A program made the position numbers and the translations under genes. Below, piece after piece: positions 23,957 through 62,773 of a stretch of DNA of 64,000 bases. This DNA is from a virus, in the IMG/VR virus record IMGVR_UViG_3300047558_000077, positions 1-64,000 of that record. The stretch is one strand, 5' to 3'. The notes beneath the pieces are model-generated. The model did no database searches, was not told where the DNA came from, and saw only the letters and a list, made by a program, of their open reading frames with translations. Numbering within the stretch: position 1 is the stretch's first letter; each line of letters begins with the position of its first letter.

Positions 23957-24802
23957 TTGGTTAATACTTGGTGGTTGGATGCGGAGCATATTATACACAA
24001 AGTTGGAAACCTGTCAAGCCCTAAAATGAAAGAAAGTGATAAATTGTTCAACTTTTTTCACCGCACACCAGAGATTCATCTGGACTGCTTCACAACAAAT
24101 AACACCGTATATCTGACTACACCTATCATCAAAGCATCTAAAGCTATACCGGAATGGTGGCGAAAGATGACACCACATCAACCACAGTTTCGACAATCAG
24201 AAAAAGTTCCTTTTTATGTAGAAGACAACATGACAGTGAGAGATTGTTATGCGTTCATAGAGTTATATAAAAAAGGAGTCATCATCGAGAATTGGTGTGA
24301 CATCTCATTTAGAGTAGAGAACGGTAGTTATAACTATTGTTATTCACAAGGAGATTCTCCTCAAGATCATCCTAGGGAACAGCTTGGCGATTCTTTTCCT
24401 AATCATCACCACATAAAACTACTAAGTCCATGGGCGTTTAGAGAAACTACAGGTATCCAGTTTGCGTGGCTGGGTGCGGAATGGTCACTTGATAAACTTG
24501 AAATAAAAGTCTTGCCAGGAGTCATAAACTTTGATATAGTATCACAGATTAACGTGAACTTTATGTTTCCAGTTAGGAACGGTATGTTCAACATACCTGT
24601 AGGTAATCCTTTGGTGCATTTGATTCCTTTGTCAGAGAAAAAATTGAAAGTCCATAATCACTTGGTGACCGACCAAGAGTTTAAAAAGAACATACTTGAT
24701 TCAAAATCAGTTTCGTTCTATGGTTGGAAAAGAGCGTTACAGTTAAGAAAAAGAAATAGAGAACGAGGTACCTGCCCGTTTCAGGGAGATAACAATGACT
24801 AA
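23957..24802 (+). CDS. Hypothetical protein (true start probably ~24026-24044)
   Basis: IPEWWRKM, KLLSPW, LPGVI and GNPLVHLIPL motifs recur in freshwater phage proteins. Confidence 0.5.
   Translation: MVNTWWLDAEHIIHKVGNLSSPKMKESDKLFNFFHRTPEIHLDCFTTNNTVYLTTPIIKASKAIPEWWRKMTPHQPQFRQSEKVPFYVEDNMTVRDCYAFIELYKKGVIIENWCDISFRVENGSYNYCYSQGDSPQDHPREQLGDSFPNHHHIKLLSPWAFRETTGIQFAWLGAEWSLDKLEIKVLPGVINFDIVSQINVNFMFPVRNGMFNIPVGNPLVHLIPLSEKKLKVHNHLVTDQEFKKNILDSKSVSFYGWKRALQLRKRNRERGTCPFQGDNND
23990..24017 (-). promoter_or_regulatory. Antisense sigma70 promoter with no downstream minus-strand gene
   Basis: Reverse complement reads TTGACA-16bp-TATAAT. Confidence 0.65.
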
Positions 24803-25391
24803 AAAGAAAAAAAATCACTACGTAGATAATGAACGGTTCTTTGCCGAGATCGTTGAATATAAGAAACAATGTAAAGTTGCTGAATTAGAAGGTAGAGAAA
24901 AGCCTATGCTATCAGATTACATAGGCAAATGCATTTTCCTGATTGCGGAAAACCTAGCACATAAGCCAAGGTTCATGAACTACTCATTTGTCGATGAAAT
25001 GAAGTCTGATGCTATTGAAAACTGTTTGATGTATTTTGATAACTTTGACTCGGATAAGTATAGCAATCCGTTCGCATACTTCACACAGATTATTTACTAC
25101 GCTTTTCATCGCCGCATAAACAAGGAAGAAAAGAATCGATATATAATGTATAAGAAGTTTCAGGAAAGTATTCTAGATACTACTCAACATTTTGAAGGTT
25201 TTAACATTGACAGTCATTCACTACTTTTAGATAGTGCAGACAACCACGTTATGAATACTCAGATATATGATAACATTAATGACTTTATTGATCGTTTTGA
25301 GAAACGTGAGGAAGAGAAGAAAGCCAAGCGTAAAGTAAAAAAAGAAGGACTCGAAAAGTTTATAGGAGAAGATGATGAAAGAAGAGAATGA
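24795..25391 (+). CDS. gp55: Late-transcription sigma factor gp55
   Basis: HYVDN..F, YIGKC..LIAENL, EMKSDAIENC, NPFAYFTQIIYYAF.RRI.KE. Confidence 0.95.
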   Translation: MTKKKKNHYVDNERFFAEIVEYKKQCKVAELEGREKPMLSDYIGKCIFLIAENLAHKPRFMNYSFVDEMKSDAIENCLMYFDNFDSDKYSNPFAYFTQIIYYAFHRRINKEEKNRYIMYKKFQESILDTTQHFEGFNIDSHSLLLDSADNHVMNTQIYDNINDFIDRFEKREEEKKAKRKVKKEGLEKFIGEDDERRE

Positions 25392-25820: not shown

Positions 25821-26897
25821 ATGGCGCTGATTGCTATGCCTACCGATACACACGCCGGAGTCAGAAATGATAATCCGGCGTTTCAGACGTATCAAAAGAA
25901 ATGTTGGAAGTGGTTCATTGATTATATTGATGCTAATAACATCAAGCATGTCATTCATCTTGGAGATATCTATGACCGTAGAAAGTATATCAACTTTATG
26001 TCGGCCAAGCGCCTGCGTGAGGACTTCTTTGAACCATTAGAGGAGAGAGGCATTGAAACTCACATTATACAAGGCAATCATGACTCTTATTACAAGGATA
26101 CACACGAAGTCAACGCTCTCGACGAAGTTGTCCGTGGGCGATATACTCACATTAGGACTTATAGCGTTCCTACTCTTATCAATATTGACGGCCTTGATAT
26201 TCAAATAATGCCATGGATTACCGACTCTAACTATGAAGAGTCCATGGAAGCAATCAAACATCCTAAAGCACCGATCCTCATGGGTCACCTTGAGTTGAAC
26301 GGTTTCACTATGCACAGAGGACTTATATCAGATCATGGATTGGATCGCAAACTCTTTGAAAACTTTGACGCTGTATATTCAGGTCACTATCACCACCGTA
26401 GCACTGTTGGTAATATTACTTATATTGGCGCCTTTGGTGAGTATACTTGGCACGATTACTCGGACCCTAGAGGATTTTCTGTCCTGGATACTGCATCCAG
26501 GAAACTAGAGTTCATACAGAATCCGCATAGAATGTTCCGTATTGCTAAGTATGATGATGTTGCTAATCCGGATATTATAGAGAAAATCCAGAAAACAGAT
26601 TTCAGTATGTATAAAGATTGCTACGTCAAACTGATTGTAGTGAACAAAAGCAATCCATACGCATTTGATTTGCTCTTTGATTCCATTTACAAAGCAGGTC
26701 CACTGGACATTCAGATTGTTGAAGATCCTACAGTTTTACTAGATTCCGAAGAAGATGTGGAGATTGACGAGGCCGAAGATACCGTAAGCATACTAAAAAA
26801 GTATGTTGAAGGGTTGACACTATCAGTAAATAATGATAGAATGAAAAAGTTTATGATTGATGTATATAACGAAGCCTTACAGGTTGAAACAGTATAG
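25821..26897 (+). CDS. gp47: Recombination endonuclease subunit gp47 (Mre11/SbcD-like)
   Basis: DTHAG, HLGDIYDRRK, GNHD, GHLEL.GF and SGHYH phosphoesterase motifs. Promoter TTGACG-17-TATACT at 25754-25782. Confidence 0.95.
   Translation: MALIAMPTDTHAGVRNDNPAFQTYQKKCWKWFIDYIDANNIKHVIHLGDIYDRRKYINFMSAKRLREDFFEPLEERGIETHIIQGNHDSYYKDTHEVNALDEVVRGRYTHIRTYSVPTLINIDGLDIQIMPWITDSNYEESMEAIKHPKAPILMGHLELNGFTMHRGLISDHGLDRKLFENFDAVYSGHYHHRSTVGNITYIGAFGEYTWHDYSDPRGFSVLDTASRKLEFIQNPHRMFRIAKYDDVANPDIIEKIQKTDFSMYKDCYVKLIVVNKSNPYAFDLLFDSIYKAGPLDIQIVEDPTVLLDSEEDVEIDEAEDTVSILKKYVEGLTLSVNNDRMKKFMIDVYNEALQVETV
26814..26842 (+). promoter_or_regulatory. Sigma70-type promoter for ftsH within the 3' end of gp47
   Basis: TTGACA-17bp-TAGAAT with extended TGn. 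Confidence 0.65.
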
Positions 26898-26908
26898 GAT
26901 AATATGAT

Positions 26909-28699
26909 ATGAAAAAACTAATCCCTTGGGTAGCATTTCTGTTGATTGCTGCTATGCTTTTTGCTTTTTCTATGGAAAGCAGAGGTCGTAACACAACAAA
27001 CGAAATCGCTTATACAGATTTTATGACACAGGTAGAACATAATAACGTCCATGATATCACTATCTATGGTAGTCAAGTCACAGGACATTATAAAACTGAC
27101 AATAGATCATTTACAACTTATGTTGCCTCACTAACAAATCTTATGCCTAAACTAGAGGAACATAAGGTTCACATTACAGTGAAGTCGGATGATCCTGAAT
27201 CATCTTTCTGGACAACACTATTTCTAAATCTACTTCCTGTTGTATTCTTTTTTGGTCTATGGATTTTTCTGTCTCGCCGTCAAGGTGGTGGCATGGGTGG
27301 TCCTATGTCCTTTGGCAAGTCAAAGGCTAAACTGCTAACAGAAGCAAATGGAACAAAGACATTTGATGATGTTGCTGGTGTAGATCAAGCAAAAGAAGAC
27401 TTACAGGAAGTTGTGGAGTTTCTACAGGATCCGCATAAGTTTGAACGACTAGGTGGTAAGATTCCTCGTGGTGTTCTACTTGTTGGTCCTCCTGGTACAG
27501 GTAAAACTCTACTAGCAAGAGCGGTTGCTGGTGAAGCGGGCGTTCCGTTCTTTAGCATTTCCGGTTCTGACTTCGTTGAAATGTTTGTCGGTGTCGGTGC
27601 TTCTCGTGTCCGTGATATGTTTGAGCAAGCAAAGAAGAATGCTCCTTGCATTATCTTCATTGACGAAATCGACGCCGTTGGTCGTTCTAGAGCAAATGGA
27701 TTTAGTGGTAATGATGAAAGAGATCAGACACTAAACGCCATGCTTGTTGAAATGGATGGTTTCAATGATAACGAAGGTGTTATTGTTATCGCTGCTACCA
27801 ACCGTGTAGATGTTCTAGATAAGGCACTAACTCGTCCTGGTCGTTTTGATAGACAGGTTCAGGTTCCTAATCCAGACTTTGTTGGTCGTGAAAAGATTTT
27901 GAAAGTTCACACACGCAAGGTTCCTATTGGTCCTGATGTTGATCTAAAGACTGTTGCAAGAGGAACACCAGGTTTTTCTGGTGCCGATCTTGCTAATCTT
28001 GTCAATGAAGCAGCACTACTAGCAGCACGCCGTTCAAAGCGTATTGTTACTAGTAGTGAGTTTGAGGATGCCCGTGATAAGATCCTAATGGGAGCAGAAC
28101 ATAGAACACTTCTAATGACAGAAGATGAAAAGAGAATGACAGCCTATCACGAAGCAGGTCACGCTCTTGTTTCTCTCAACATGACTGGTTCTATTCCAAT
28201 CCACAAAGCGACAATCATTCCTCGTGGCGGTGCTCTTGGTATGGTTCAGTCACTACCTGAAAGAGATAAAATCTCACAGTCTTATGAGGAAATGATTGCT
28301 CAACTTGCTATGGCTATGGGTGGTCGTGTAGCAGAAGAAATCATCTTTGGTAACGAGAAGGTAACTTCTGGTGCTTCGGGTGATATCCAGCAAGCGACAA
28401 AACTAGCAAGAGCAATGGTTACTGAATATGGATTCTCTCGTAAACTAGGTAGAATGGCATATTCAACACCTGGTGCTGATATGTTCAATAGTCCTAAGAT
28501 TTCAGAAGAGACTCAAAAGACTGTTGATGAAGAAGTCCTAAAGTTGGTTGAGGAAGGATATAAAACAGCAAAAGATATTCTTACATATCATAAAAAAGAC
28601 CTTGACAAACTAGCAGAAGGTCTGCTAACATACGAGACACTAACGGGTCAAGAAATCAAGGATCTGTTACAAGGAAAGACACCAACAAGAGATTTTTAA
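26909..28699 (+). CDS. ftsH: ATP-dependent membrane zinc metalloprotease FtsH
   Basis: Two TM segments, Walker A GPPGTGKT, pore FVGVG, Walker B IFIDEID, SRH TNR.D.LD.AL.RPGRFDR, HEAGH zinc motif, [10 protein letters not shown]. Confidence 0.97.
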
Positions 28700-30423
28700 T
28701 GATAACATTCCATGTGATTAGATACAAAAATTTTCTATCATCTGGAAATGTGTTTACTGAAATAGAACTAGACTCTCATAAGAATACTCTTATTATGGGT
28801 CACAACGGCGCAGGGAAATCAACATTGCTTGATGCCCTGTGCTTTGTTCTTTTCGGTAAGCCGTTTCGTAAGGTGAACAAAGGTAATGTTGTAAATAGCA
28901 TTAATAACAAAAACTGCCTTGTTGAGATTGAGTTTACCGCAAACAACAAGCGGTACAAAGTTATCCGTGGTGCCAAACCTAATGTGTTTGAAATCTACTG
29001 TAACGATGTAAAGATCAATCAAGATGCCGCTGCTAAAGACTATCAGGAACATCTAGAAAAATATATTCTAAAGATGAACTATAAGTCATTCACACAGATT
29101 GTTATTCTTGGTTCAGCATCGTTTGTTCCTTTCATGCAGTTGTCATCCAATGATCGTCGGTCTGTTATCGAGGATCTTTTGGACATTCAAATCTTTACCG
29201 CCATGTCTACGGTTGTAAAGAATAAACTACAAATGAACAAAGAAGGTCTAGAAAAGAACCGTGTTGTCTTGACTAGCAAGAATGAGAATAAGTCTTACAT
29301 TGAAAAGACACTTGCTTCCCTTCGTGCTAATAACGAAGAGAAGTTGAAAGAACTTGAAGCAAGGAAGGACGAACTTACGCAAGAGTCCATTAAGCAAGAA
29401 TGTATTGTTGAAAATCTTAAAATTGATTTTGAGAAAGCAACCGATCAAGACCTAAACCTAACACCATTAAAGACTAAGCATTCCAAGTTGGTCGCATTCA
29501 AGGCCAAGATTGAAGGCAATAAAGAAAGAGTTGTAAAAGAAAACTTTTTCTATCATGATAATGATACCTGTCCAACTTGTAAGCAGGATATCAGTCATGA
29601 ACATAAGTTCAATATGATGACAGATAATGACAAGAAGATTGCTGAATATGGAGATGGACTAAATAAGATCGAGGAACAAATCAACTCCGTTCTATCTGAA
29701 ATCGAGCGCATAGATGAAATCTTACAGAACATCAACAAGATTAAGTTGGATCTTTCATCTGCTAAGGCTACCTATAACAATACTGCTAATAATCTTCGTC
29801 AAATCGTGGAGCAGATTGAATCATTCGCTACATCGGACAAAACCACCCAAGAGTCAGAACGACAACTCCAAGTCGTTCAACATGATATTTCCACCCTCGA
29901 AGAAGAGAAGAAGGCCCTTCTAGATGACAGACAATACATTGACACGGCCATCACCCTACTCAAAGATGGTGGAATCAAGACTCGAATCATTAAGCAATAT
30001 CTACCTATCATCAATAAGCATATCAACAAATACCTGGCTAAACTGGGTTTCTTTGTTAACTTTAACATTGACGAATCCTTTAACGAATCCATCAAGAGTC
30101 GTTTCCGAGACGAGTTCTCCTATCAGAACTTCTCCGAAGGAGAGAAACTCCGAATTGATTTGGCCATACTTCTAACATGGAGACAGATTGCTAAACTAAA
30201 AAACTCCGTGAATGTCAATATTCTGGTGTTTGATGAAATACTCGACCGTGCCATGGACGCTAGTGGTATCGACGAGTTCCTTAAGATCATGTGGGATATG
30301 GGAGACAAAGGAACAAACATCTTCGTTATCTCACATAAGGACAGTATGGTCGATAGATTCCAGAGAACCTTGAAGTTTGAAAAGGTAAAGAACTTTTCGG
30401 TCTTGACAAGCGCCCAAGAATAG
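28699..30423 (+). CDS. gp46: Recombination ATPase gp46 (Rad50/SbcC-like)
   Basis: GHNGAGKST, zinc hook CPTC, FSEGEKLRIDLA signature, LVFDEILD, ISH. Confidence 0.96.
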   Translation: MITFHVIRYKNFLSSGNVFTEIELDSHKNTLIMGHNGAGKSTLLDALCFVLFGKPFRKVNKGNVVNSINNKNCLVEIEFTANNKRYKVIRGAKPNVFEIYCNDVKINQDAAAKDYQEHLEKYILKMNYKSFTQIVILGSASFVPFMQLSSNDRRSVIEDLLDIQIFTAMSTVVKNKLQMNKEGLEKNRVVLTSKNENKSYIEKTLASLRANNEEKLKELEARKDELTQESIKQECIVENLKIDFEKATDQDLNLTPLKTKHSKLVAFKAKIEGNKERVVKENFFYHDNDTCPTCKQDISHEHKFNMMTDNDKKIAEYGDGLNKIEEQINSVLSEIERIDEILQNINKIKLDLSSAKATYNNTANNLRQIVEQIESFATSDKTTQESERQLQVVQHDISTLEEEKKALLDDRQYIDTAITLLKDGGIKTRIIKQYLPIINKHINKYLAKLGFFVNFNIDESFNESIKSRFRDEFSYQNFSEGEKLRIDLAILLTWRQIAKLKNSVNVNILVFDEILDRAMDASGIDEFLKIMWDMGDKGTNIFVISHKDSMVDRFQRTLKFEKVKNFSVLTSAQE

Positions 30424-53948: not shown

Positions 53949-54726
53949 AGTTGCCTACTATCACATTCATCTAACAGATGATCCTCTAATCTGGACTTCT
54001 ATCTTTCTTGAACAAATGAAATGTATAGAGGATTCTGGATTGATTCAGAATCTAAATAAGATGCGAGTTACTTGCATTGCACAGGATGATGACCGCATCC
54101 AGATGTTTGTTCGTCTATGCGAATCCTATAACATTCCTATGGAACTAACAGCGATCAAGAACCCATTTGACAATGATCGTGACATGCTCTATAATAGAAA
54201 CACTAATAAGTCATGCACGGAAGACATTACGTTAAAGCGTATATGGGAAGATTGTAAAAAGGAAGATATGAAAGTTCTTTACTTTCATTCTAAAGGTTCT
54301 ACATCATATTCCACTAATGTCAATGTCAATAACATCGTCAAACATAAGGAATACTTTTACTGGCGTTCCTTTATGAATTGGGCTGTGTTGGAGCAATGGG
54401 CTTTTTGTGAGAACGCATTGGATAGATATGATATTGCTGGTGGTGACTATCATGAATTACCTTCCCCACATTTTTGCGGTAACTTCTGGTGGGCAACTTC
54501 GGATCATATCAAGCAATTGCCAGACCCACTAGATAAAGCATGGTGGCATGAATTACAAAAGAGGACAGATGATGCTTGGATCAAACAAGCACCAGTTAGA
54601 ATGTATGATGAAATGTGGATCGGTGCTAGAGAAGGTATCAAAGTATATAACGTGATTGATCTAAAGGGTAAGAACCCAGTCAATCAATGTTTATCTGAAT
54701 TAGACTGTGAGAGGCTTATGCAATGA
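53941..54726 (+). CDS. Hypothetical glycan-cluster protein
   Basis: LYFHSKG, WR.FM, HFCGNFWWA and EMWIG motifs. Confidence 0.55.
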   Translation: MNRVAYYHIHLTDDPLIWTSIFLEQMKCIEDSGLIQNLNKMRVTCIAQDDDRIQMFVRLCESYNIPMELTAIKNPFDNDRDMLYNRNTNKSCTEDITLKRIWEDCKKEDMKVLYFHSKGSTSYSTNVNVNNIVKHKEYFYWRSFMNWAVLEQWAFCENALDRYDIAGGDYHELPSPHFCGNFWWATSDHIKQLPDPLDKAWWHELQKRTDDAWIKQAPVRMYDEMWIGAREGIKVYNVIDLKGKNPVNQCLSELDCERLMQ

Positions 54727-55964
54727 AAGTAACAGTGATTGGTGCGGGAGGTCATGTTGGTCTTCCGTTTTCTCTTGTGGTAGCAGATGCGGGACATATC
54801 GTATATGGTGTTGACCTGAATGAAGAACTTATTCTAGCACTGAATAGTGGTATTGTGCCTTATATTGAACATGGCGCAGAAGAACTACTAGTAAAGCACA
54901 CATCAGAAGGTAACATCGTTTTCACTACCAACGCATCTATGATAAATGAATCAGATGTTGTTGCCATCATGCTTGGCACACCTGTTGACGAAGAGAACAA
55001 TCCACGACTAGATGATTTGTTTGACTTTGTTGATCATACTCTTATGCCTAATATGAAGAAAGATACGTTGGTGCTGTTAAGGTCAACAGTATCACCAGGC
55101 ACAACAGAAATACTTCGTGATCGTATTGAATCGATAACTGGATGGATAGAAGGTAAAGATTTTTATCTGGTGTTTGTTCCTGAAAGAGTTCTACAGACAA
55201 AAGGTATTGAAGAGACAGCAAATCTACCAGCATTGATTGGAGCATTTGGAGATAACTCATATTATAAGGCTAGAGAGTTTCTAGGAACATTCATCAAGGC
55301 ACCTATGTTTCTTCTAACACCAAGAGAAGCGGAGATCGGTAAACTTATGACGAATATGTTTCGTTATGTTACCTTTGCTCTTGCTAATGAGTTTTGGATG
55401 ATTGGAGAAAAGCAAGGTGTGGATATGCACCGTGTCATCCAAGCAGCAAATTATGGTTATGAAAGAAATGCTATTCCTCTACCAGGTCCTAATGTCGGCG
55501 GTCCATGTCTATTCAAAGATGGTAGATTTCTTCTATCAGACATACCGTTTGCTGATCTTATTCAGACCTCGTTCCATATCAATGAAGGTATGCCAGACTA
55601 CATCTTCAATCGCATCAAGGAGATGAATCCTAAGGTAAGATGTGTTTTGATTCTTGGTGCGACCTTCAAGAAGGACTGTGACGATACACGAAACAGTCTA
55701 TCATTCAAAATGAAGAAGGTATGTAAGAAGAATGGTGCCGAGGTGTATATGTGGGATGACTATATTCCGTGGCCAAAGGACAAGGATTTTCCATACAGAG
55801 AACATTTTGATGCTGTTATTGTAATGACACCTCATACAGGCACAGAAGCAAAGTGGCCGCTAAATGATTTCAATGATGATTGTATCATCGCAGATATCTG
55901 GAAGATGTATCCAGAAAGTAAACTAAGTAAGTCAGGCATTTATAGAGTTGGAGATATGTTGTAA
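54723..55964 (+). CDS. Nucleotide-sugar dehydrogenase (UDP-Glc/GDP-Man/UDP-ManNAc DH family)
   Basis: GAGGHVGLP, RSTVSPGTT, PERV, AEIGKL..N, GGPCLFKD, LGATFK..CDD.RNS. Confidence 0.9.
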   Translation: MKVTVIGAGGHVGLPFSLVVADAGHIVYGVDLNEELILALNSGIVPYIEHGAEELLVKHTSEGNIVFTTNASMINESDVVAIMLGTPVDEENNPRLDDLFDFVDHTLMPNMKKDTLVLLRSTVSPGTTEILRDRIESITGWIEGKDFYLVFVPERVLQTKGIEETANLPALIGAFGDNSYYKAREFLGTFIKAPMFLLTPREAEIGKLMTNMFRYVTFALANEFWMIGEKQGVDMHRVIQAANYGYERNAIPLPGPNVGGPCLFKDGRFLLSDIPFADLIQTSFHINEGMPDYIFNRIKEMNPKVRCVLILGATFKKDCDDTRNSLSFKMKKVCKKNGAEVYMWDDYIPWPKDKDFPYREHFDAVIVMTPHTGTEAKWPLNDFNDDCIIADIWKMYPESKLSKSGIYRVGDML

Positions 55965-55988
55965 GGATCGGATTTACTAAATAGTATT

Positions 55989-56044
55989 GTCCGTCACGGA
56001 GTTGGCGCTCCCACGGACTCTAATACTGTTTAGGAGTATCAGCA
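55989..56044 (+). ncRNA. Structured leader RNA motif, copy 2 (upstream of GIY-YIG gene)
   Basis: Follows late promoter CTAAATA (55977-55983). Covaries with 39501-39558. Confidence 0.65.
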
Positions 56045-56668
56045 ATGTTCTATATTTATGCCTATCTCAGGCAAGACAACACACCATATTATATCGGTAA
56101 AGGAAAAGGTCGTAGGGCTTGGACTAAGTATAAGGGAGAAGTGTATCCTCCTAAAGACAAAACTCGTGTGGTCATTATGGAAGATAATCTAACAGAACTT
56201 GGCGCTTTGGCTTTAGAAAGAAGATATATTCGTTGGTATGGACGTAAAGATAATGGCACAGGTATATTGAGAAATATGACAGATGGTGGTGACGGAACAA
56301 CAGGTATCATCAGAGACGAGGAATGGAGTAGAAAGCAAAGAGAGTCACAACCTAAAAAATTTGGTTTAGATAATCCATTCTATAACAAGCAGCACAATGT
56401 AGAAACAAAAAAGATAATGAGTATCAAAAAACAGGGTGAAAATCATCCTATGTTTGGAAAGAAACAAAGTAATACTACAATAGAAAGAAAAGTAAAGAAA
56501 CTATCAAAGAAGTGGATGATAACATTTCCAGATGGTCATAGTGAGATTATAAAGAACATAAAAGAGTTTTGTAGAGATAAAGATTTTGGTCCGAGCCAAC
56601 TATATAATGTCGCTTATGGAAATCAAAAATCTTGTCACGGATATAAATGTCAGAAAATGGAGAACTGA
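56045..56668 (+). mobile_element. Free-standing GIY-YIG homing endonuclease with NUMOD3-like repeats
   Basis: FYIYAY...YYIGKG...[26 protein letters not shown] and HPMFGKKQS repeats. Confidence 0.88.
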
Positions 56669-56669
56669 A

Positions 56670-57659
56670 ATGCGTGTATTGGTCACTGGAAGTGAAGGAT
56701 CGTTGGGACAGGCTGTCATACCACTATTATTGAAAAAAGGTTATGTTGTGACCGGCGTAGATAATCTTGCCAGATACGGTGAAAGATTCGGTTTAGCAGG
56801 TAATGATTATACGTTTATCAAGTGCGATCTAACTGACGGACTTAGTGTCCAGAGATTGATGGATCAGGTAAAACCGGATTATATTCTACAAATGGCTGCC
56901 ACTATTTACGGGGTTTCAGGGTTCAATAAGTATTGCGGTGAGATGTATAAGGACATTGCCCTACACGATAATGTCCTTCGTGCTGCTGCTAATCATAATG
57001 TTGAAAAGGTAATCTACATTTCATCTTCTATGGTGTATGAGAACTGCCCACAAGACATTGCTTATCCGGTTCCTGAGGATATTGTTGATAGTAATCCAGC
57101 ACCTTATACAGACTATGGTCTATCAAAGTTTGTCGGTGAGCGTGTATCTAAGGCATATCTAAAGCAGTATGGTCTAAAGTATACTATCTGGCGTCCATTC
57201 AACATCATTACACCATATGAAAGAAGTGAGTCCGAAGAAGTTGGTATCTCACATGTCTTTGCCGACTACATCAAGAATATCGTTATTGAAAAGAAGAAGC
57301 CACTACCTATTCTAGGTGATGGTTATCAGATTCGGTGCTTCACATGGATTGATGAAGTTGCTGCGGCTATTGCTGACTATTCATTTGATACTAAGACCGA
57401 CAATCAGATTTACAATCTCGGTAATGCTGAACCAATCTCTATGCGTGTTCTAGCAGAGAAGATCAAAGACATTGCCTCTAAAGAATATAATCTGATTGAA
57501 GATTACTTCCTTCTATATGAGACTATCGGTGATTATCAGAACGATGTTCGTGTCCGTATTCCAGATTGTGAAAAAGCCAAGAATGAACTTGGTTGGGAAG
57601 CACGAATGAAAGTTGATGACTCTATTCGTATGTGTCTCAAGTATGTTGCGGAGAAATAA
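56670..57659 (+). CDS. NAD-dependent nucleotide-sugar epimerase/dehydratase (possibly UDP-GlcA decarboxylase-type)
   Basis: TGSEGSLG, SSSMVY, YGLSK, RPFN, GDGYQIRCFT. Confidence 0.85.
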   Translation: MRVLVTGSEGSLGQAVIPLLLKKGYVVTGVDNLARYGERFGLAGNDYTFIKCDLTDGLSVQRLMDQVKPDYILQMAATIYGVSGFNKYCGEMYKDIALHDNVLRAAANHNVEKVIYISSSMVYENCPQDIAYPVPEDIVDSNPAPYTDYGLSKFVGERVSKAYLKQYGLKYTIWRPFNIITPYERSESEEVGISHVFADYIKNIVIEKKKPLPILGDGYQIRCFTWIDEVAAAIADYSFDTKTDNQIYNLGNAEPISMRVLAEKIKDIASKEYNLIEDYFLLYETIGDYQNDVRVRIPDCEKAKNELGWEARMKVDDSIRMCLKYVAEK

Positions 57660-58606
57660 TGACAACATTCATCGTAACAGGTTGTAATGGATATATTGGC
57701 AGTCATATGTGCCATGAACTTGGTGCGTTATACAATGATTGTCATATCATAGGTATTGATAGAGTTGAGAAGAAGCATCTCAAGCATTTGTATGACGAGT
57801 TTATTCAGGTAGACTTGGCTCTTGACCCTATTGTATTATCAAATGGAAAGAAACGGCACATAGATGCCGTTTTTCATTTTGCTGCCGAGATATCAGTAGA
57901 AGAAGGCGAGTCGGATCCATGGAAGTATTACTTTAACAATGTGGTCGGTTCGCTTCGTATGATGAAAGAAGCAAAGCAGTATGGTATCAAAAACTTTATC
58001 TTTTCATCTACTGCGGCTGTCTACGGTAAATCAGAAAGTTCTGCGTTCGGACATTTGTTTGAAACAAGTCCAGTCAATCCTTATTCTGTATATGGTAAGA
58101 GTAAGGCGATGGTTGAAAATGTTCTGCTAGATGAAAAAGAAATGAACTGTGCCATTCTTCGGTACTTCAATGTTGCCGGTAGAAGTCAGAAAGCCAATCT
58201 ATACGAAGAACATGATCCAGAAACACATTTGATTCCTCTTCTTGTCAGAGGAGAAAATCCTGTGATCTACGGAACAGATTATCAGACAAGAGACGGAACT
58301 TGTGTTAGAGATTTTATTGACGTTAGAGACGTATGCCGTGCCCATACATTGGCTTATCGTTATATGAATGAAAAGAATGAAAGTCTCCTTCTAAATGTAG
58401 GAAGCGGTAGAGGATATACAGTCAAAGAAGTTGTTGACAAAGTGAATGAAATCATTCATAATGGTGAAATGAAAGTTACTTTTGAGGAACGGAGACCAGG
58501 TGATGTTTCCTATCTGGTTGCGGATACAACCAAGATAAAAGAGACACTGGATTTTCAGCCACAGTATTCTCTGGACAATATCATAGAAAGTATGAAGAAT
58601 GTATAA
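57659..58606 (+). CDS. galE: UDP-glucose 4-epimerase
   Basis: GYIGSH, HFAA.ISV.E, FSSTAAVYG, YGKSK, LRYFNVAG, ETHLIP, DGTCVRDFI, RRPGD. Confidence 0.9.
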   Translation: MTTFIVTGCNGYIGSHMCHELGALYNDCHIIGIDRVEKKHLKHLYDEFIQVDLALDPIVLSNGKKRHIDAVFHFAAEISVEEGESDPWKYYFNNVVGSLRMMKEAKQYGIKNFIFSSTAAVYGKSESSAFGHLFETSPVNPYSVYGKSKAMVENVLLDEKEMNCAILRYFNVAGRSQKANLYEEHDPETHLIPLLVRGENPVIYGTDYQTRDGTCVRDFIDVRDVCRAHTLAYRYMNEKNESLLLNVGSGRGYTVKEVVDKVNEIIHNGEMKVTFEERRPGDVSYLVADTTKIKETLDFQPQYSLDNIIESMKNV

Positions 58607-58793: not shown

Positions 58794-58993
58794 AACTTAT
58801 GAGAGTCTTAGACAAAACATTTAAGATTAATAAATCAATGCGACCCGAAATGATTTTAACAGTAGCATTTCCTTTGGAATATGCCAAAGATGAATCAGAA
58901 GTTATTTCTGGTGAAGAGTTTTTAAAACAGTTTAATGAAGCAATGGCAGAATACGAAAGAGAGAATGAAAATGAAGTATCATTCACCGATTGA
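58790..58993 (+). CDS. Hypothetical protein
   Basis: ATGA-coupled short ORF. Confidence 0.4.
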   Translation: MKLMRVLDKTFKINKSMRPEMILTVAFPLEYAKDESEVISGEEFLKQFNEAMAEYERENENEVSFTD

Positions 58994-60683
58994 TTCAACA
59001 CTATTTCTTCTCCGTGATGTTCTAGGTTTTGACAATGAACTAACGGAGCCGATTCTTACTGAGGCGGCCAAGTTGTGTGAAGAAGAAATCGCACCGACTA
59101 ATCAGATTGGTGATAAGGAAGGTTGTGTTAGAGTTCCTAAAGTAACCATTTTAAACGAAGATAAAACGATTAAAGAAACTCGTGAATCTTTCGTAAGAGT
59201 TCCAGAATGTTTCAAAGAACCATACAAAAAGTTTGCCGAAGGAGGTTGGCTTGGTCTATCAGTTCCTGAAGAGTATGGTGGACAAGGCCTACCATATACA
59301 CTTGCGGCTGCGGTCAACGAGTTTGTATCCTCGTCTAACATGGCTTTTAGTATGTTTCCTGGCCTTACTCGTGGAGCTATCCAAGCACTCTTAGCATCTG
59401 GTAATGATTTCCAGAAGCATGAGTATATACCTAGATTAGTATCTGGTGAATGGACTGGAACAATGTGTCTTACTGAACCACATTGCGGTACCGACCTTGG
59501 ACTGCTAAAGACAAAAGCGGTGCATGATTATGACGACTGGTATAAGATTACAGGTCAGAAAATCTTTATCTCTGGTGGTGACCACGATCTAACAGATAAT
59601 ATTCTTCATCTTGTTCTAGCAAGAGTTGAAGGTGATTCAGAAGGCGTCAAAGGTATTAGTCTGTTTGCTGTACCTAAAAATCTAGGAGAAAATAATAATG
59701 TCTCTTGCGGTTCTATTGAAGAAAAGATGGGCATTCATGGTTCACCAACATGCGTTATGAACTTTGATGGTGCTTATGGTATTCTAATCGGTGAACGCTG
59801 TAAGGGTCTCCAAGCAATGTTCGTTATGATGAACGAAGCAAGACTAGGTGTTGCTGTTCAAGGACTATCACAATCGGAGTTGGCTTATCAAAATGCTTTG
59901 GAATATGCTAAAGAAAGACTTCAAGGGACTAAACTTTCGAATCGATTGGGGGAGACTACTACTCGGAATCCGTGTAGTATTATACATCACCCTGACGTTC
60001 GCCGTATGCTACTTGATGTTAGGTCTATCAATGAGGCTGCTAGGCTTCTAATACTAGAAGCGGCGATGTTGGTTGATAAAGCCGACGAAGAATCACAAGA
60101 TCGCCTTGGTCTAATGACTCCTGTTCTAAAGGGTGTATTGACAGACTATGGTTTTGAAAATGCTGTAAAGATGCAACAGGTTTGGGGTGGCCATGGATAT
60201 GTTCGTGACAATGGTATGGAACAAATCGTAAGAGACGCCAGAATTGCCATGATCTATGAAGGTGCTAATGGTATTCAGGCACTTGATCTTGTTGGCCGTA
60301 AGTTGCCTAAGAACATGGGTCGTGCTATTACTAAGTTCTTCAAGGATAGTGAAAGTTTCTTGTCGGGTGCATATGATAAAGATATCAATCCAATCGTGCA
60401 GCCAATGACAAGAGCATTGAATGAACTAAAACAAGCAACAGAATGGTTGATGCATAATGCTATCAAGAATCCAAACAATGCTGGTTCGGCATCTTATGAT
60501 TATATGAAGATGATGGGACTTGTTATGCTTGGTATGGCACACATCAAGATTTGTCTAAAGACAAATGACAAGACACGCCATGACAATGCTACATATTTCA
60601 TGGAGCGTATTGTACCAGAGACAAGTTTTCTGTTGAAGCGTATCAAAGAAGGTTCTGATACTATGATGAAAGCGGAGTTTTGA
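58971..60683 (+). CDS. Acyl-CoA dehydrogenase (long type with N- and C-terminal extra domains)
   Basis: YGGQGLP, GTMCLTEPHCGTDL, GQKIFIS, EEKMGIHGSPTC, MMNEARL, QVWGGHGY, IYEGANGIQALDL. Confidence 0.95.
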   Translation: MKYHSPIDSTLFLLRDVLGFDNELTEPILTEAAKLCEEEIAPTNQIGDKEGCVRVPKVTILNEDKTIKETRESFVRVPECFKEPYKKFAEGGWLGLSVPEEYGGQGLPYTLAAAVNEFVSSSNMAFSMFPGLTRGAIQALLASGNDFQKHEYIPRLVSGEWTGTMCLTEPHCGTDLGLLKTKAVHDYDDWYKITGQKIFISGGDHDLTDNILHLVLARVEGDSEGVKGISLFAVPKNLGENNNVSCGSIEEKMGIHGSPTCVMNFDGAYGILIGERCKGLQAMFVMMNEARLGVAVQGLSQSELAYQNALEYAKERLQGTKLSNRLGETTTRNPCSIIHHPDVRRMLLDVRSINEAARLLILEAAMLVDKADEESQDRLGLMTPVLKGVLTDYGFENAVKMQQVWGGHGYVRDNGMEQIVRDARIAMIYEGANGIQALDLVGRKLPKNMGRAITKFFKDSESFLSGAYDKDINPIVQPMTRALNELKQATEWLMHNAIKNPNNAGSASYDYMKMMGLVMLGMAHIKICLKTNDKTRHDNATYFMERIVPETSFLLKRIKEGSDTMMKAEF

Positions 60684-61283: not shown

Positions 61284-61545
61284 TCATCATAACGGTATCA
61301 TCGTTCGCCGTAGATACAACTATAAACATCTAAGGCCATATGATACGTGTCTTTGTAGCACATGGTCGAGACACATTAGAACAGTCAATAAGAAAATGAG
61401 GAAAAAGTATGAGAATACATGACTGTAAATACAACGTTCGTCGTAGACCTAAACATTTTAAGGAAAGGCCATATAATAATTTTGCCCAAGCGCCTTGGTC
61501 ATGGTTTATTACATGTGTCAATTTGACAAAGAGAAAAAAGTATGT

Positions 61546-61782
61546 ATGATGAAATATTTGATGATAATCTCAATGGTGGTATTCCCCACGGTTACTAATG
61601 CTCAACTAGCAATGACCACGGACAATCATTCTTTGACACAATCTACTGCCAATCCTCCGTTGAGATCGCCAGCGTATTCTTGGCAGCCAAATACAAGTGA
61701 TGGTGCCACACAGGGTTGGCAGTCAACTGTTCCGACTGGTGGTGCCAGAGGAATCGTAACAGAATGGGAAGAAGTTGAGTGA
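61546..61782 (+). CDS. Small, possibly secreted protein upstream of pmoC
   Basis: Signal-like MMKYLMIISMVVFPTVTNA/Q followed by a polar Ser/Thr-rich mature part. Start uncertain. Confidence 0.4.
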   Translation: MMKYLMIISMVVFPTVTNAQLAMTTDNHSLTQSTANPPLRSPAYSWQPNTSDGATQGWQSTVPTGGARGIVTEWEEVE

Positions 61783-61850: not shown

Positions 61851-61930
61851 AGTAGTCAATGGTGACTACTAAATAAAAGACCGGGCATCCTATCCCGGAG
61901 ACCGGTCAATCACAAAATAGGAGTGAATAT
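61851..61930 (+). promoter_or_regulatory. pmoC regulatory region: palindrome, late promoter, structured leader and SD
   Basis: AGTAGTCA-ATGG-TGACTACT abuts CTAAATA. GACCGG/CCGGTC and CCGGG/CCCGG helices; AGGAG SD. Confidence 0.6.
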
Positions 61931-62704
61931 ATGAGCGTTGTAAAACAAACGGCAACTGCCGTGGCCACCGACGTTGATACACAGGTCGTTGACCTACGAG
62001 GCATGTGGATTGGGCTCGCCCTTCTAAATGTCTTTTATCTAATCGTCCGTATCTATGAACAGGTTTATGGCTGGCGTGCTGGTCTTGACTCGTTCGCACC
62101 AGAGTTTCAGACATATTGGATGTCTATTCTTTGGACAGAAATCCCACTAGAACTTATCTCAGGTCTTGGTCTTGCAGGTTATCTTTGGAAGACTAGAACC
62201 CGTGACTTCTCTCTTGTAACACCAAGGGAAGAAATGCGCCGTCTAGCGGTGTTGGTTCAGTGGTTGGTTGTTTATGCTGTTGCTATCTACTGGGGTGCAT
62301 CGTTCTTCACCGAACAGGATGGTACCTGGCATATGACAGTCATTCGTGATACGGATTTCACTCCGTCCCACATCATTGAGTTCTACATGAGTTACCCAAT
62401 CTACTCAATCATTGCTGTTGGTGCGTTCTTCTATGCTCGCACTCGTATCCCTTACTTTGCTCAGGGATATAGCCTAGCATTCTTGATTGTTGCTATTGGA
62501 CCATTCATGATCATCCCGAACGTTGGCCTGAATGAGTGGGGCCACACCTTCTGGTTCATGGAAGAACTATTCGTTGCTCCTCTACATTGGGGCTTCGTGT
62601 TCTTCGGCTGGATGGCTCTAGGTGTCTTTGGCGTTGTGCTACAGATCCTAGGTCGTGTCCACAGTCTCGTTGGACGAGATGGTGTAAGACTCCTTACCGA
62701 ATAA
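61931..62704 (+). CDS. pmoC: Particulate methane monooxygenase subunit C (Methylocystis/Methylosinus type)
   Basis: GLDSFAPEFQTYWM, WGASFFTEQDGTWHMTVIRDTDFTPSHIIEFYMSYP and PNVGLNEWGHTFWFMEELFVAPLHWGFV motifs. N-terminal VVDLRGMWIGLA matches type II methanotroph PmoC as recalled. Confidence 0.97.
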   Translation: MSVVKQTATAVATDVDTQVVDLRGMWIGLALLNVFYLIVRIYEQVYGWRAGLDSFAPEFQTYWMSILWTEIPLELISGLGLAGYLWKTRTRDFSLVTPREEMRRLAVLVQWLVVYAVAIYWGASFFTEQDGTWHMTVIRDTDFTPSHIIEFYMSYPIYSIIAVGAFFYARTRIPYFAQGYSLAFLIVAIGPFMIIPNVGLNEWGHTFWFMEELFVAPLHWGFVFFGWMALGVFGVVLQILGRVHSLVGRDGVRLLTE

Positions 62705-62712
62705 ATGTCAAC

Positions 62713-62741
62713 AGGGGTGCGACGCAATGTCGCACCCTTTT
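62713..62741 (+). terminator. Rho-independent terminator after pmoC
   Basis: GGGTGCGAC-GCAAT-GTCGCACCC-TTTT. Confidence 0.85.
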
Positions 62742-62744
62742 CTA

Positions 62745-62773
62745 TTGACAACGGCAATATCCATTGATATAAT
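62745..62773 (+). promoter_or_regulatory. Consensus sigma70 early promoter
   Basis: TTGACA-17bp-TATAAT with TGn. Confidence 0.85.

What the first reader, a model, noticed from the sequence alone, without database searches (positions are those of the whole stretch)
61931..62704. Phage-encoded pmoC with intact copper-site ligands points to a Methylocystis-like methanotroph host
Seen: a stand-alone pmoC (no pmoA or pmoB in this window) with its own promoter and terminator. The CuC-type ligands (D in EQDG, H in TWH, H in PSH) and CuD-type ligands (N and H in NEWGH, H in PLH) are all present. Codon use is phage-like (many CTA/CTT/GGT), which suggests long residence. Known: pmoC-carrying large freshwater phages have been described from metagenomes, so the class is not new, but it identifies the likely host and an auxiliary role in methane oxidation.
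Basis: partly seen in the sequence, partly recalled or inferred. Interest (0 to 1): 0.72.

Follow-up and report, generated by a model that had tools for sequence, protein, structure and literature searches.

The report
Phage-borne methane monooxygenase subunit gene
A complete 172-kb T4-like lake phage carries its own intact, strongly conserved copy of pmoC, one subunit of the methane-oxidising enzyme of its probable Methylocystis host; the gene is real, but such "pmoC-phages" were described in 2020, so it is a confirmation and not a discovery.

Summary
ORF 61931..62704 (+) encodes a 257-aa PmoC (Pfam AmoC, E 3e-106). It is about 90% identical to the solved Methylocystis PmoC structures. All six copper ligands are present: D130/H134/H147 (CuC) and N201/H205/H219 (CuD).

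The 172,364-bp record is a T4-like myovirus (terminase, portal, capsid, sheath, gp46/47, gp55) with no pmoA or pmoB.

In a tree, the protein sits in a clade of viral PmoCs inside the Methylocystis/Methylosinus PmoC clade. It lies away from gammaproteobacterial PmoC and AmoC.

Codon use has been recoded towards the phage (GC3 0.47; phage 0.34; host 0.78). dN/dS against other phage alleles is 0.04-0.09. Three population variants differ by 14-30 bases yet encode the identical protein. Independent assemblies are 100% identical across the locus, so it is not a chimera.

The gene has a strong terminator. I found no sigma-70 promoter directly upstream. Instead there is a conserved T4-type late motif (CTAAATA).

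All this matches the alpha-type Lake Mendota pmoC-phages of Chen et al. 2020 (LM_3: 172,382 bp, 41% GC). This scan has also found pmoC-phages on other DNA. The class is already known and interest is low. The role in methane oxidation is still an inference.

The parts
61931..62704 (+). pmoC coding sequence (257 aa plus stop), stand-alone
   Evidence: ORF; PF04896 E 2.9e-106; about 90% identical to Methylocystis PmoC 4phz/3rfr/7s4m, E 1e-152; six Cu ligands present
61919..61923 (+). ribosome-binding site AGGAG, 7 nt before the ATG
   Evidence: read from the sequence; TAGGAGTGA conserved in 7 of 7 close relatives
61869..61875 (+). CTAAATA, a T4-type late-promoter-like motif 62 nt upstream of the ATG
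   Evidence: Conserved at -58 to -64 in 7 of 7 closest phage loci; the sister clade has TATAAATA at the matching place. In the genome there are 30 copies on the + strand against 3 on the - strand, and 14 lie within 90 nt upstream of a gene start, including portal. Function as a promoter is inferred.
61879..61907 (+). hairpin in the predicted 5' leader (GACCGG...CCGGTC)
   Evidence: RNAalifold consensus of 7 loci: 8 pairs, 3 of them with double-sided changes in at least one sequence, weak energy of -7.1 kcal/mol. Role unknown; a 5' stabiliser is a guess.
62713..62745 (+). intrinsic terminator: GC-rich stem-loop plus T-run directly after the stop codon
   Evidence: terminator scan; -24 kcal/mol, z -6.1, 0 of 200 shuffles as good; a GC-rich hairpin follows the stop in most of the related phage loci
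24795..25391 (+). gp55-like late sigma factor (trans-acting context for the late motif)
   Evidence: phrog_234 'late sigma transcription factor', E 1.7e-53
58935..60683 (+). acyl-CoA dehydrogenase gene, conserved neighbour of pmoC and a second Methylocystis-like gene
   Evidence: Four ACAD Pfam domains. Syntenic with pmoC in many IMG/VR phage loci. 60-62% identical to the best copy in four Methylocystis genomes (61% over a partial match in a fifth genome, the L081 MAG); best of 151 sampled alphaproteobacterial genomes.

Best explanation
This is the pmoC gene of an already described kind of virus, an alpha-type 'pmoC-phage'. The virus is a complete, roughly 172-kb, 41% GC T4-like myovirus of freshwater Methylocystis-type methanotrophs. 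It is very probably the same population as, or a close sibling of, Lake_Mendota_pmoC-phage_3. An ancestor of this phage lineage captured pmoC from a Methylocystaceae host long ago. Since then the gene has stayed at a fixed place downstream of an acyl-CoA dehydrogenase gene, has been recoded to phage codon use, and has been kept under strong purifying selection with both copper sites intact. Shown here: gene identity, intactness, phage context, phylogenetic placement, selection and terminator. Inferred: (1) transcription from a T4-type late promoter by the phage gp55 sigma factor; (2) insertion of the phage PmoC into the host membrane, where it joins host PmoA and PmoB (or replaces labile host PmoC) so that methane oxidation, and with it energy and reductant supply, continues while the phage replicates. 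This is the same logic as psbA in cyanophages.
For: Identity: PF04896 E 2.9e-106; PDB Methylocystis PmoC E 1e-152 against gammaproteobacterial PmoC 1e-100 and AmoC 1e-62. Six Cu ligands. The core, residues 19-240, is 94% identical (209/222) to the PmoC of a pmoCAB operon in a lake MAG. Differences concentrate in the N-terminus (6/18 identical), the loop at 90-97 and the C-terminus. Phage context: terminase, sheath, portal, scaffold, capsid, UvsW, gp46/47, gp55; CheckV 100% complete; 116 of 120 large ORFs on one strand. No pmoA/pmoB. Tree: a starred clade of 9 viral PmoCs inside the 99-supported Methylocystis/Methylosinus clade. Long residence: GC3 0.47 against 0.34 for the phage and 0.78 for the host; synonymous choices fit phage usage better than host usage (-1.14 against -1.69 log-likelihood per codon). 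dS against the host is saturated. At most 81% nucleotide identity to 78 Methylocystis-genus genomes, confined to 61985-62661. Selection: dN/dS 0.04-0.09 against 14 phage alleles; 14, 19 and 30 base differences in three wild variants with no amino-acid change. Not an artefact: 6,774 bp are 100% identical in an independent assembly, plus two more identical contigs; gene order is shared with many IMG/VR phage contigs. Late expression: CTAAATA conserved and strand-biased, gp55 present. This agrees with co-expression of pmoC and structural genes in other pmoC-phages (PMC7674155). The phage carries tRNA-Leu(UAG), which reads the CTA codons that make up 41% of pmoC's Leu codons and 0% of host pmoC's. 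Match to the literature: LM_3 is 172,382 bp, 41% GC, complete, alpha-type, predicted host Methylocystis.
Against: There is no direct evidence that the protein is made, enters pMMO or changes methane oxidation. No host link independent of gene similarity was obtained; no CRISPR match could be tested with these tools. The phage's structural genes are closest to cyanophages, at about 70% nucleotide identity, so the virion genes say nothing about the host. The late promoter is a motif-level inference. The window's copy of the -35-like element seen in relatives is degenerate, and read-through from upstream genes is not excluded. ARAGORN finds 24 tRNAs against 21 reported for LM_3, which may reflect a different program or a different genome.
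Confidence: 0.85

Rival explanations
1. The phage PmoC is functional but does not simply boost methane oxidation. It may act like the stand-alone extra copies of pmoC or amoC in bacteria, as a stress or recovery isoform. Or it may alter pMMO properties or membrane organisation through its divergent N- and C-termini and the 90-97 loop.
For: Differences from host PmoC cluster in the termini and one loop, while the core is 94% identical. Chen et al. raise the same possibility. Bacterial Methylocystis genomes hold many stand-alone pmoC copies: 38 of 80 loci showed no pmoA/pmoB in the flank held (a few of these flanks were too short to tell).
Against: In the tree the phage clade does not fall inside the 19-row clade of divergent stand-alone bacterial copies (SH-aLRT 96). 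It sits with operon-type PmoC of lake Methylocystis. Both copper sites are intact, so a catalytic role is the simpler reading.
Confidence: 0.2
2. The host is not Methylocystis itself but another methanotroph of the same family group (for example Methylosinus or an undescribed lake lineage). Alternatively, the gene records a past host and not the present one.
For: The phage clades sit in an unresolved polytomy at the base of the Methylocystis/Methylosinus PmoC clade. Nucleotide identity to 78 Methylocystis-genus genomes never exceeds 81%. No spacer or other physical link was found.
Against: The nearest bacterial PmoCs are lake Methylocystis MAG sequences (92% over residues 18-257). Methylosinus sequences form a separate starred clade deeper in the bacterial group. 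The neighbouring acyl-CoA dehydrogenase is also most similar to Methylocystis among 151 sampled alphaproteobacteria (62% against at most 58%). Chen et al. found co-occurrence of LM_1, LM_2, LM_3, LM_5 and LM_8 with a Methylocystis population over five years. A gene kept under strong selection is only useful in a host that has pMMO.
Confidence: 0.12
3. Assembly chimera or host contamination: a bacterial pmoC read set was stitched into a phage contig.
For: Chen et al. note that assemblies often break at pmoC because host and phage copies are similar.
Against: The gene's GC3 (0.47) and codon choices are phage-like, not host-like (0.78). Flanks and gene are 100% identical in three independent assemblies. 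The same gene order occurs in dozens of IMG/VR contigs from different samples. No bacterial-like DNA flanks the gene.
Confidence: 0.01
4. The gene is amoC and the host is an ammonia oxidiser.
For: The NCBIfam equivalog that matches is named 'bacterial ammonia monooxygenase, subunit AmoC'.
Against: That model also names Methylocystis and Methylosinus PmoC (names). PDB AmoC chains score E 1e-62 against 1e-152 for Methylocystis PmoC. Nitrosococcus and Nitrosoglobus AmoC are the outgroup in the tree.
Confidence: 0.01

Closest known systems
Alpha-type pmoC-phages of freshwater lakes (Chen et al. [quoted passage not shown]
   Same: A large myovirus genome with a stand-alone pmoC and no pmoA/pmoB. 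The PmoC is alphaproteobacterial (Methylocystis-type), more than 90% similar to a co-occurring lake methanotroph. CuC ligands are kept. Termini are divergent and the core conserved. An acyl-CoA dehydrogenase similar to that of Methylocystis lies near pmoC. The phage is related to cyanophages. Size and GC are nearly the same as LM_3 (172,364 against 172,382 bp; 40.8 against 41%).
   Different: Sequence identity with LM_3 could not be verified here. ARAGORN finds 24 tRNAs plus a tmRNA against the 21 tRNAs reported. Small details not in that paper: the CuD ligands (a site defined in 2022) are also intact; there is a T4-type late-promoter motif with a leader hairpin and a dedicated terminator; codon recoding and dN/dS are quantified.
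PmoC of Methylocystis sp. Rockwell and sp. M (PDB 4PHZ, 7S4M, 3RFR)
   Same: About 90% identical over residues 5-257 with a single one-residue gap. All copper ligands and the transmembrane core are conserved.
   Different: Encoded alone on a phage. The N-terminal 18 residues, the loop at 90-97 (RDRNVDAV becomes RTRDFSLV) and the C-terminal tail differ. Codon use is AT-shifted.
Cyanophage psbA (the photosystem II D1 gene carried by T4-like cyanomyoviruses)
   Same: A related T4-like phage lineage carries a single, labile, catalytic membrane subunit of the host's energy-harvesting complex. That subunit gene is under purifying selection and recoded to phage composition.
   Different: The enzyme system is different. 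For psbA, expression and function during infection have been shown experimentally (my own knowledge). For phage pmoC only metatranscriptomic expression in other phages is reported.
amoC-carrying viruses of ammonia oxidisers (cited in PMC7674155; bioRxiv 10.64898/2026.06.18.733297)
   Same: Only the C subunit of a copper membrane monooxygenase is carried by the virus.
   Different: The clade of the family and the hosts are different. Here the protein clusters with methanotroph PmoC.

Membership tests
PmoC/AmoC, subunit C of copper membrane monooxygenases (Pfam PF04896) | Full-length match to the family profile above the curated cut-off | tested here: met
   354.8 bits against a cut-off of 26.7, profile positions 4-244 of 245; TIGR03078 328 bits against 280.6
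PmoC/AmoC, subunit C of copper membrane monooxygenases (Pfam PF04896) | CuC site ligands Asp/His/His (Asp156, His160, His173 in M. capsulatus Bath numbering) | tested here: met
   D130, H134, H147; offset +26 in the 1yew_C alignment; ligand names from PMC12576850
PmoC/AmoC, subunit C of copper membrane monooxygenases (Pfam PF04896) | CuD site ligands Asn/His/His (Asn227, His231, His245) | tested here: met
   N201, H205, H219
PmoC/AmoC, subunit C of copper membrane monooxygenases (Pfam PF04896) | Assembles with PmoA and PmoB into an active enzyme | not testable with these tools
   Only indirect evidence: 94% identity of the core to an operon-encoded PmoC, and only 6 departures from columns that are at least 95% conserved in operon-type PmoC. 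Four of these are in the N-terminus; the others are V106A and K249R.
Methylocystis/Methylosinus (type II methanotroph) PmoC of pMMO1 type | Falls inside that clade in a phylogeny that includes gammaproteobacterial PmoC, AmoC, a divergent Methylocystis PmoC paralogue and Methylocapsa PmoC | tested here: met
   The 100-row clade has SH-aLRT 99. The window lies in a viral subclade (98) in a polytomy with lake Methylocystis MAG sequences. This was a quick IQ-TREE search, not a full bootstrap analysis.
pmoC-phages (Chen et al. 2020) | The genome is a phage (hallmark genes); large myovirus | tested here: met
   Terminase, tail sheath, portal, scaffold, major head protein, gp46/47, gp55; 172 kb, CheckV 100%
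pmoC-phages (Chen et al. 2020) | pmoC present without pmoA or pmoB anywhere in the genome | tested here: met
   tblastn with Methylocystis PmoA/PmoB gave E > 1 only, with positive controls; Pfam PF02461 and PF04744 absent
pmoC-phages (Chen et al. 2020) | The phage PmoC is closest to PmoC of methanotrophs from the same habitat (more than 90%) | tested here: met
   92% over residues 18-257 to the pmoCAB operon of MAG ME2012-09-07 (L081), and 90% to Methylocystis MAG ME2001-10-09 (L084). That the window's own sample is the same lake is inferred from record numbering, not shown.
pmoC-phages (Chen et al. 2020) | Same genome as the published LM_3 | tested here: inconclusive
   Length differs by 18 bp and GC is equal.
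AmoC of ammonia-oxidising bacteria | Groups with AmoC of nitrifiers | tested here: not met
   Nitrosococcus and Nitrosoglobus AmoC form the outgroup; PDB AmoC E 1e-62 against PmoC 1e-152

The most novel reading that the evidence does not exclude
pmoC in this phage lineage is a dedicated late gene. It has a T4-type late promoter, a conserved 5' leader hairpin and its own terminator. It would work together with the phage's own FtsH protease (26909..28699) as a phage-run repair cycle. In that cycle FtsH extracts damaged host PmoC from pMMO and the phage copy replaces it, as FtsH and D1 do in photosystem II repair. Nothing tested here excludes this, and nothing tested here supports the FtsH link beyond both genes lying in one genome.
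Probability: 0.12. Interest if true: 0.6.

Novelty: already known. Interest (0 to 1): 0.15.

Why it matters
Phage-borne pmoC suggests that viruses can tune the biological methane filter of lakes, which matters for greenhouse-gas budgets. That point was made in 2020. This window adds one more clean, complete example, probably the same Lake Mendota population. It also adds some supporting detail: both copper sites are intact, selection and codon recoding are quantified, the gene carries a late-promoter motif, and the phage supplies a matching tRNA-Leu(UAG). These details are useful for designing expression or complementation experiments. They do not change the picture.

Tried and rejected
1. GenBank phage collection: blastn and tblastn with pmoC found nothing. 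The structural module finds only cyanophages at about 70%. I could not compare with LM_3 directly.
2. CRISPR or host-DNA matching through the genome search: a 20-kb query against 78 genomes of the Methylocystis genus returned only the pmoC core, because only the three best candidates per genome are scored. The method does not suit spacers and I dropped it.
3. Sigma-70 promoter directly upstream of pmoC: none in the scan. The TTGACA-16-TATGAT site at 61523-61550 overlaps the start of the upstream 78-aa ORF, so I did not accept it as the pmoC promoter.
4. pqqA beside pmoC, a lead from earlier scan notes on other phages: not found with PF08042, TIGR02107 or a peptide-pattern scan of all six frames.
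5. Paper supplements for the gene content of LM_3: the stored tables are cut and gave nothing usable.
6. One or several captures by phages: in the best tree all 34 alpha-type viral PmoCs form one side of a branch, but with zero support. A single capture is neither shown nor rejected.
7. Structure and complex prediction were not run. At about 90% identity to solved structures they would pass by likeness and add nothing.
8. Chimera, AmoC and gammaproteobacterial-host readings were rejected (see the rival explanations).

Full report
**Observation.** The window holds an ATG-initiated ORF at 61931..62704 on the + strand (257 aa), preceded by AGGAG at 61919-61923.
- It matches Pfam AmoC (PF04896) over the whole profile (E 2.9e-106).
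- It passes the curated cut-offs of two NCBIfam equivalogs.
- Against solved structures the best matches are PmoC of Methylocystis sp. Rockwell and sp. M (E about 1e-152, roughly 90% identity, one single-residue gap) and Methylosinus trichosporium.
- Gammaproteobacterial PmoC scores 1e-100 and AmoC 1e-62.

**Copper ligands.**
- The alignment to M. capsulatus Bath PmoC (1yew_C) has a constant offset of +26 after the N-terminus.
- D130/H134/H147 therefore equal the CuC ligands Asp156/His160/His173.
- N201/H205/H219 equal the CuD ligands Asn227/His231/His245, as those sites are described in PMC12576850.
- All six columns are invariant in 113 aligned family members, so their presence marks an intact gene and not an unusual one.

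**Context.** The window is the first 64 kb of a single-contig virus record of 172,364 bp. It has 40.8% GC, and CheckV estimates it as complete.
- Nearly all genes lie on one strand.
- PHROG searches identify large terminase, tail sheath, portal, scaffold, major head protein, a UvsW-type helicase, the gp47/gp46 nuclease pair and a gp55-type late sigma factor.
- The nearest deposited phages for the capsid region are T4-like cyanomyoviruses at about 70% nucleotide identity.
- The genome also holds 24 tRNA genes and a tmRNA.
- Neither Pfam models nor tblastn with PmoA and PmoB from a Methylocystis pmoCAB operon find anything in the 172 kb. The same queries recover pmoA/pmoB in 42 of 80 bacterial loci. 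pmoC is truly alone.

**Not an artefact.**
- The exact protein is encoded on ten contigs from independent runs. One 9.7-kb contig is 100% identical to the record over 6,774 bp around pmoC, and two more contigs are identical over 1.9 kb.
- Dozens of IMG/VR phage contigs share the gene order acyl-CoA dehydrogenase, small ORFs, pmoC, downstream ORFs, at 65-89% nucleotide identity.
- Against 78 genomes of the Methylocystis genus, the only nucleotide similarity in 44-64 kb is the pmoC core (61985-62661), at no more than 81%.

**Phylogeny and host.** I built a tree from 113 PmoC/AmoC sequences: the window, 40 viral, 64 bacterial from genome contigs and 8 references. It was a quick IQ-TREE search with SH-aLRT support.
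- The window lies in a clade of nine viral sequences (98).
- That clade sits within a larger viral group, inside a 99-supported clade that holds all Methylocystis and Methylosinus pMMO1-type PmoCs.
- The viral groups sit in a basal polytomy with three sequences from lake Methylocystis MAGs. One of these is a pmoCAB operon that is 92% identical over residues 18-257.
- Gammaproteobacterial PmoC (with its own viral relatives), Nitrosococcus and Nitrosoglobus AmoC, Methylocapsa, and a divergent Methylocystis paralogue all fall outside.
- The phage clade does not join the clade of divergent stand-alone bacterial copies.
- All 34 alpha-type viral PmoCs form one side of a branch in the best tree, but without support. 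A single ancient capture is compatible with the data but not shown. The shared position next to the acyl-CoA dehydrogenase in members of both viral subclades favours it.
- A second gene points the same way. The neighbouring acyl-CoA dehydrogenase is 60-62% identical to the best copy in four Methylocystis genomes, and 61% over a partial match in a fifth genome, the L081 MAG.
- In an even sample of 151 alphaproteobacterial genomes the Methylocystis centre genome scored best, 62% against at most 58%. One of those comparison genomes, G045, is unpublished. The claim uses it only as one non-best comparator.

**Residence time and selection.**
- pmoC has GC3 of 0.47, against 0.34 +/- 0.05 for 119 other large phage ORFs and 0.78 for the nearest host pmoC.
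- Its synonymous choices fit phage usage better than host usage. CTA is 41% of Leu codons (phage 36%, host 0%) and GGT is 48% of Gly codons (phage 58%, host 9%).
- Some C-ending preferences (TTC, ATC, CAG) remain host-like.
- The phage encodes tRNA-Leu(UAG).
- Synonymous divergence from host genes is saturated. Against 14 other phage alleles, dN/dS is 0.04-0.09 with dS 0.5-2.3.
- Three wild variants differ from the window's gene at 14, 19 and 30 bases with no amino-acid change.
- Differences from host PmoC concentrate in the first 18 residues (6/18 identical), the loop at 90-97 and the last 17 residues. Residues 19-240 are 94% identical. This agrees with the published description.

**Transcription signals.**
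- A stem-loop at 62713-62739 followed by TTTTCT is a strong intrinsic terminator (-24 kcal/mol, z -6.1). Equivalent hairpins follow the stop in most of the related phage loci.
- No sigma-70-type site lies directly upstream.
- Instead, CTAAATA at 61869-61875 is conserved 58-64 nt before the ATG in all seven closest loci. The sister clade has the canonical T4 late box TATAAATA, often 17 nt after TTGAC.
- In this genome CTAAATA occurs 30 times on the coding strand and 3 times on the other. Fourteen copies lie within 90 nt upstream of gene starts, including the portal gene.
- With a gp55 homologue present, the most likely reading is a late gene. This fits the co-expression of pmoC with structural genes reported for other pmoC-phages.
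- A short leader hairpin at 61879-61907 shows some compensatory change.

**Comparison with what is known.** Chen et al. 2020 (PMC7674155) described 22 pmoC-phages. Among them are the Lake Mendota alpha-type phages LM_1, LM_2, LM_3, LM_5 and LM_8, whose predicted host is Methylocystis. LM_3 is 172,382 bp, 41% GC and complete.
- The paper already reports the stand-alone gene, the CuC ligands, the divergent termini, the acyl-CoA dehydrogenase similar to Methylocystis, the kinship with cyanophages, and the idea of augmenting methane oxidation.
- The present record differs from LM_3 by 18 bp in length and is most likely the same or a sibling population. I could not verify this base by base.
- Other agents of this scan have reported pmoC-phages on other DNA. 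The pqqA partner they saw elsewhere is absent here.

**Verdict.** The finding is an instance of an already known class. The mechanistic claim (phage PmoC joins host pMMO late in infection to sustain methane oxidation) remains an inference. I rate the identity and context as near certain, and the functional model at roughly 60%.

Noticed in passing
window 26909-28699 (+): A full-length FtsH (FtsH_ext, AAA, AAA_lid_3 and Peptidase_M41 domains) lies between the gp47-like (25821..26897) and gp46-like (28699..30423) nuclease genes. A phage-encoded membrane protease in a genome that also carries a labile membrane-enzyme subunit is suggestive, but no link was tested.
   Followed up: partly
window 62717-62735: The palindrome TGCGAC-N5-GTCGCA, which other notes of this scan read as a RegR/PrrA-like operator before the promoter at 62745-62773, is the stem of the pmoC intrinsic terminator (11-12 bp stem plus T-run, z -6.1). 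A terminator followed by the next gene's perfect TTGACA-17-TATAAT promoter is the simpler reading for this copy.
   Followed up: partly
whole genome (G000) and window 11228, 13147, 20745, 39491, 46037, 55977, 61869: CTAAATA occurs 30 times on the + strand and 3 times on the - strand. Fourteen copies lie within 90 nt upstream of gene starts. It is probably this phage's late-promoter box, served by the gp55 homologue at 24795..25391.
   Followed up: partly
G000 75119-83779 and 125940-126300 (beyond the window): There is an array of 24 tRNA genes, including tRNA-Leu(UAG), which reads the phage-preferred CTA codon. ARAGORN also finds a tmRNA, which it marks as permuted, with tag AANDNVPFDYALAA.
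   Followed up: no
window 58935-60683 (+): A 582-aa acyl-CoA dehydrogenase (AidB/FadE-like, with the Acyl-CoA_dh_C domain) is conserved next to pmoC in many related phages. The nearest copy found in named bacterial genomes is about 62% identical (Methylocystis). Its role in the phage is unknown.
   Followed up: partly
window 54723-58606 (+): A sugar-nucleotide cluster sits upstream of the ACAD gene: a UDP-glucose/GDP-mannose dehydrogenase (54723..55964) and two NAD-dependent epimerase/dehydratases (56586..57659, 57632..58606).
   Followed up: no
protein P0002 (database relative of the window's PmoC): A 247-aa variant is identical to the window's PmoC except for a clean 10-residue deletion (LVQWLVVYAV, residues 108-117). 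This recalls the within-population partial pmoC reported for another pmoC-phage. It could be real variation or an assembly artefact.
   Followed up: no
window pmoC residues 90-97 (DNA 62198-62221); protein P0031: The loop variant TRTRDFS(L/T)(V/L)TPREE of the phage PmoC, where host operon copies have TRDRN(V/I)DAV(T/A)PREE, also occurs in a divergent PmoC paralogue of Methylocystis sp. IM3 that is only 72% identical overall. This may be convergence or an old recombination.
   Followed up: no
window 61546-61782 (+): A 78-aa ORF with a signal-peptide-like N-terminus (MMKYLMIISMVVFPTVTNAQ) lies just upstream of pmoC. It matches no Pfam or PHROG family. Its 5' part is conserved at 82-94% in several related phage loci.
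   Followed up: partly
window 61851-61870: The hairpin AGTAGTC-N6-GACTACT abuts and overlaps the CTAAATA motif. Both arms change together in relatives (AGTGATC/GATCACT in L007, AGTAATC/GATTACT in L031). Its function is unknown.
   Followed up: no
G000 114406-115629 (beyond the window): This ORF has the highest GC3 (0.53) of the large ORFs, and its N-terminus looks RtcB-like by eye. It may be another gene of cellular origin that is less adapted to the phage than pmoC.
   Followed up: no
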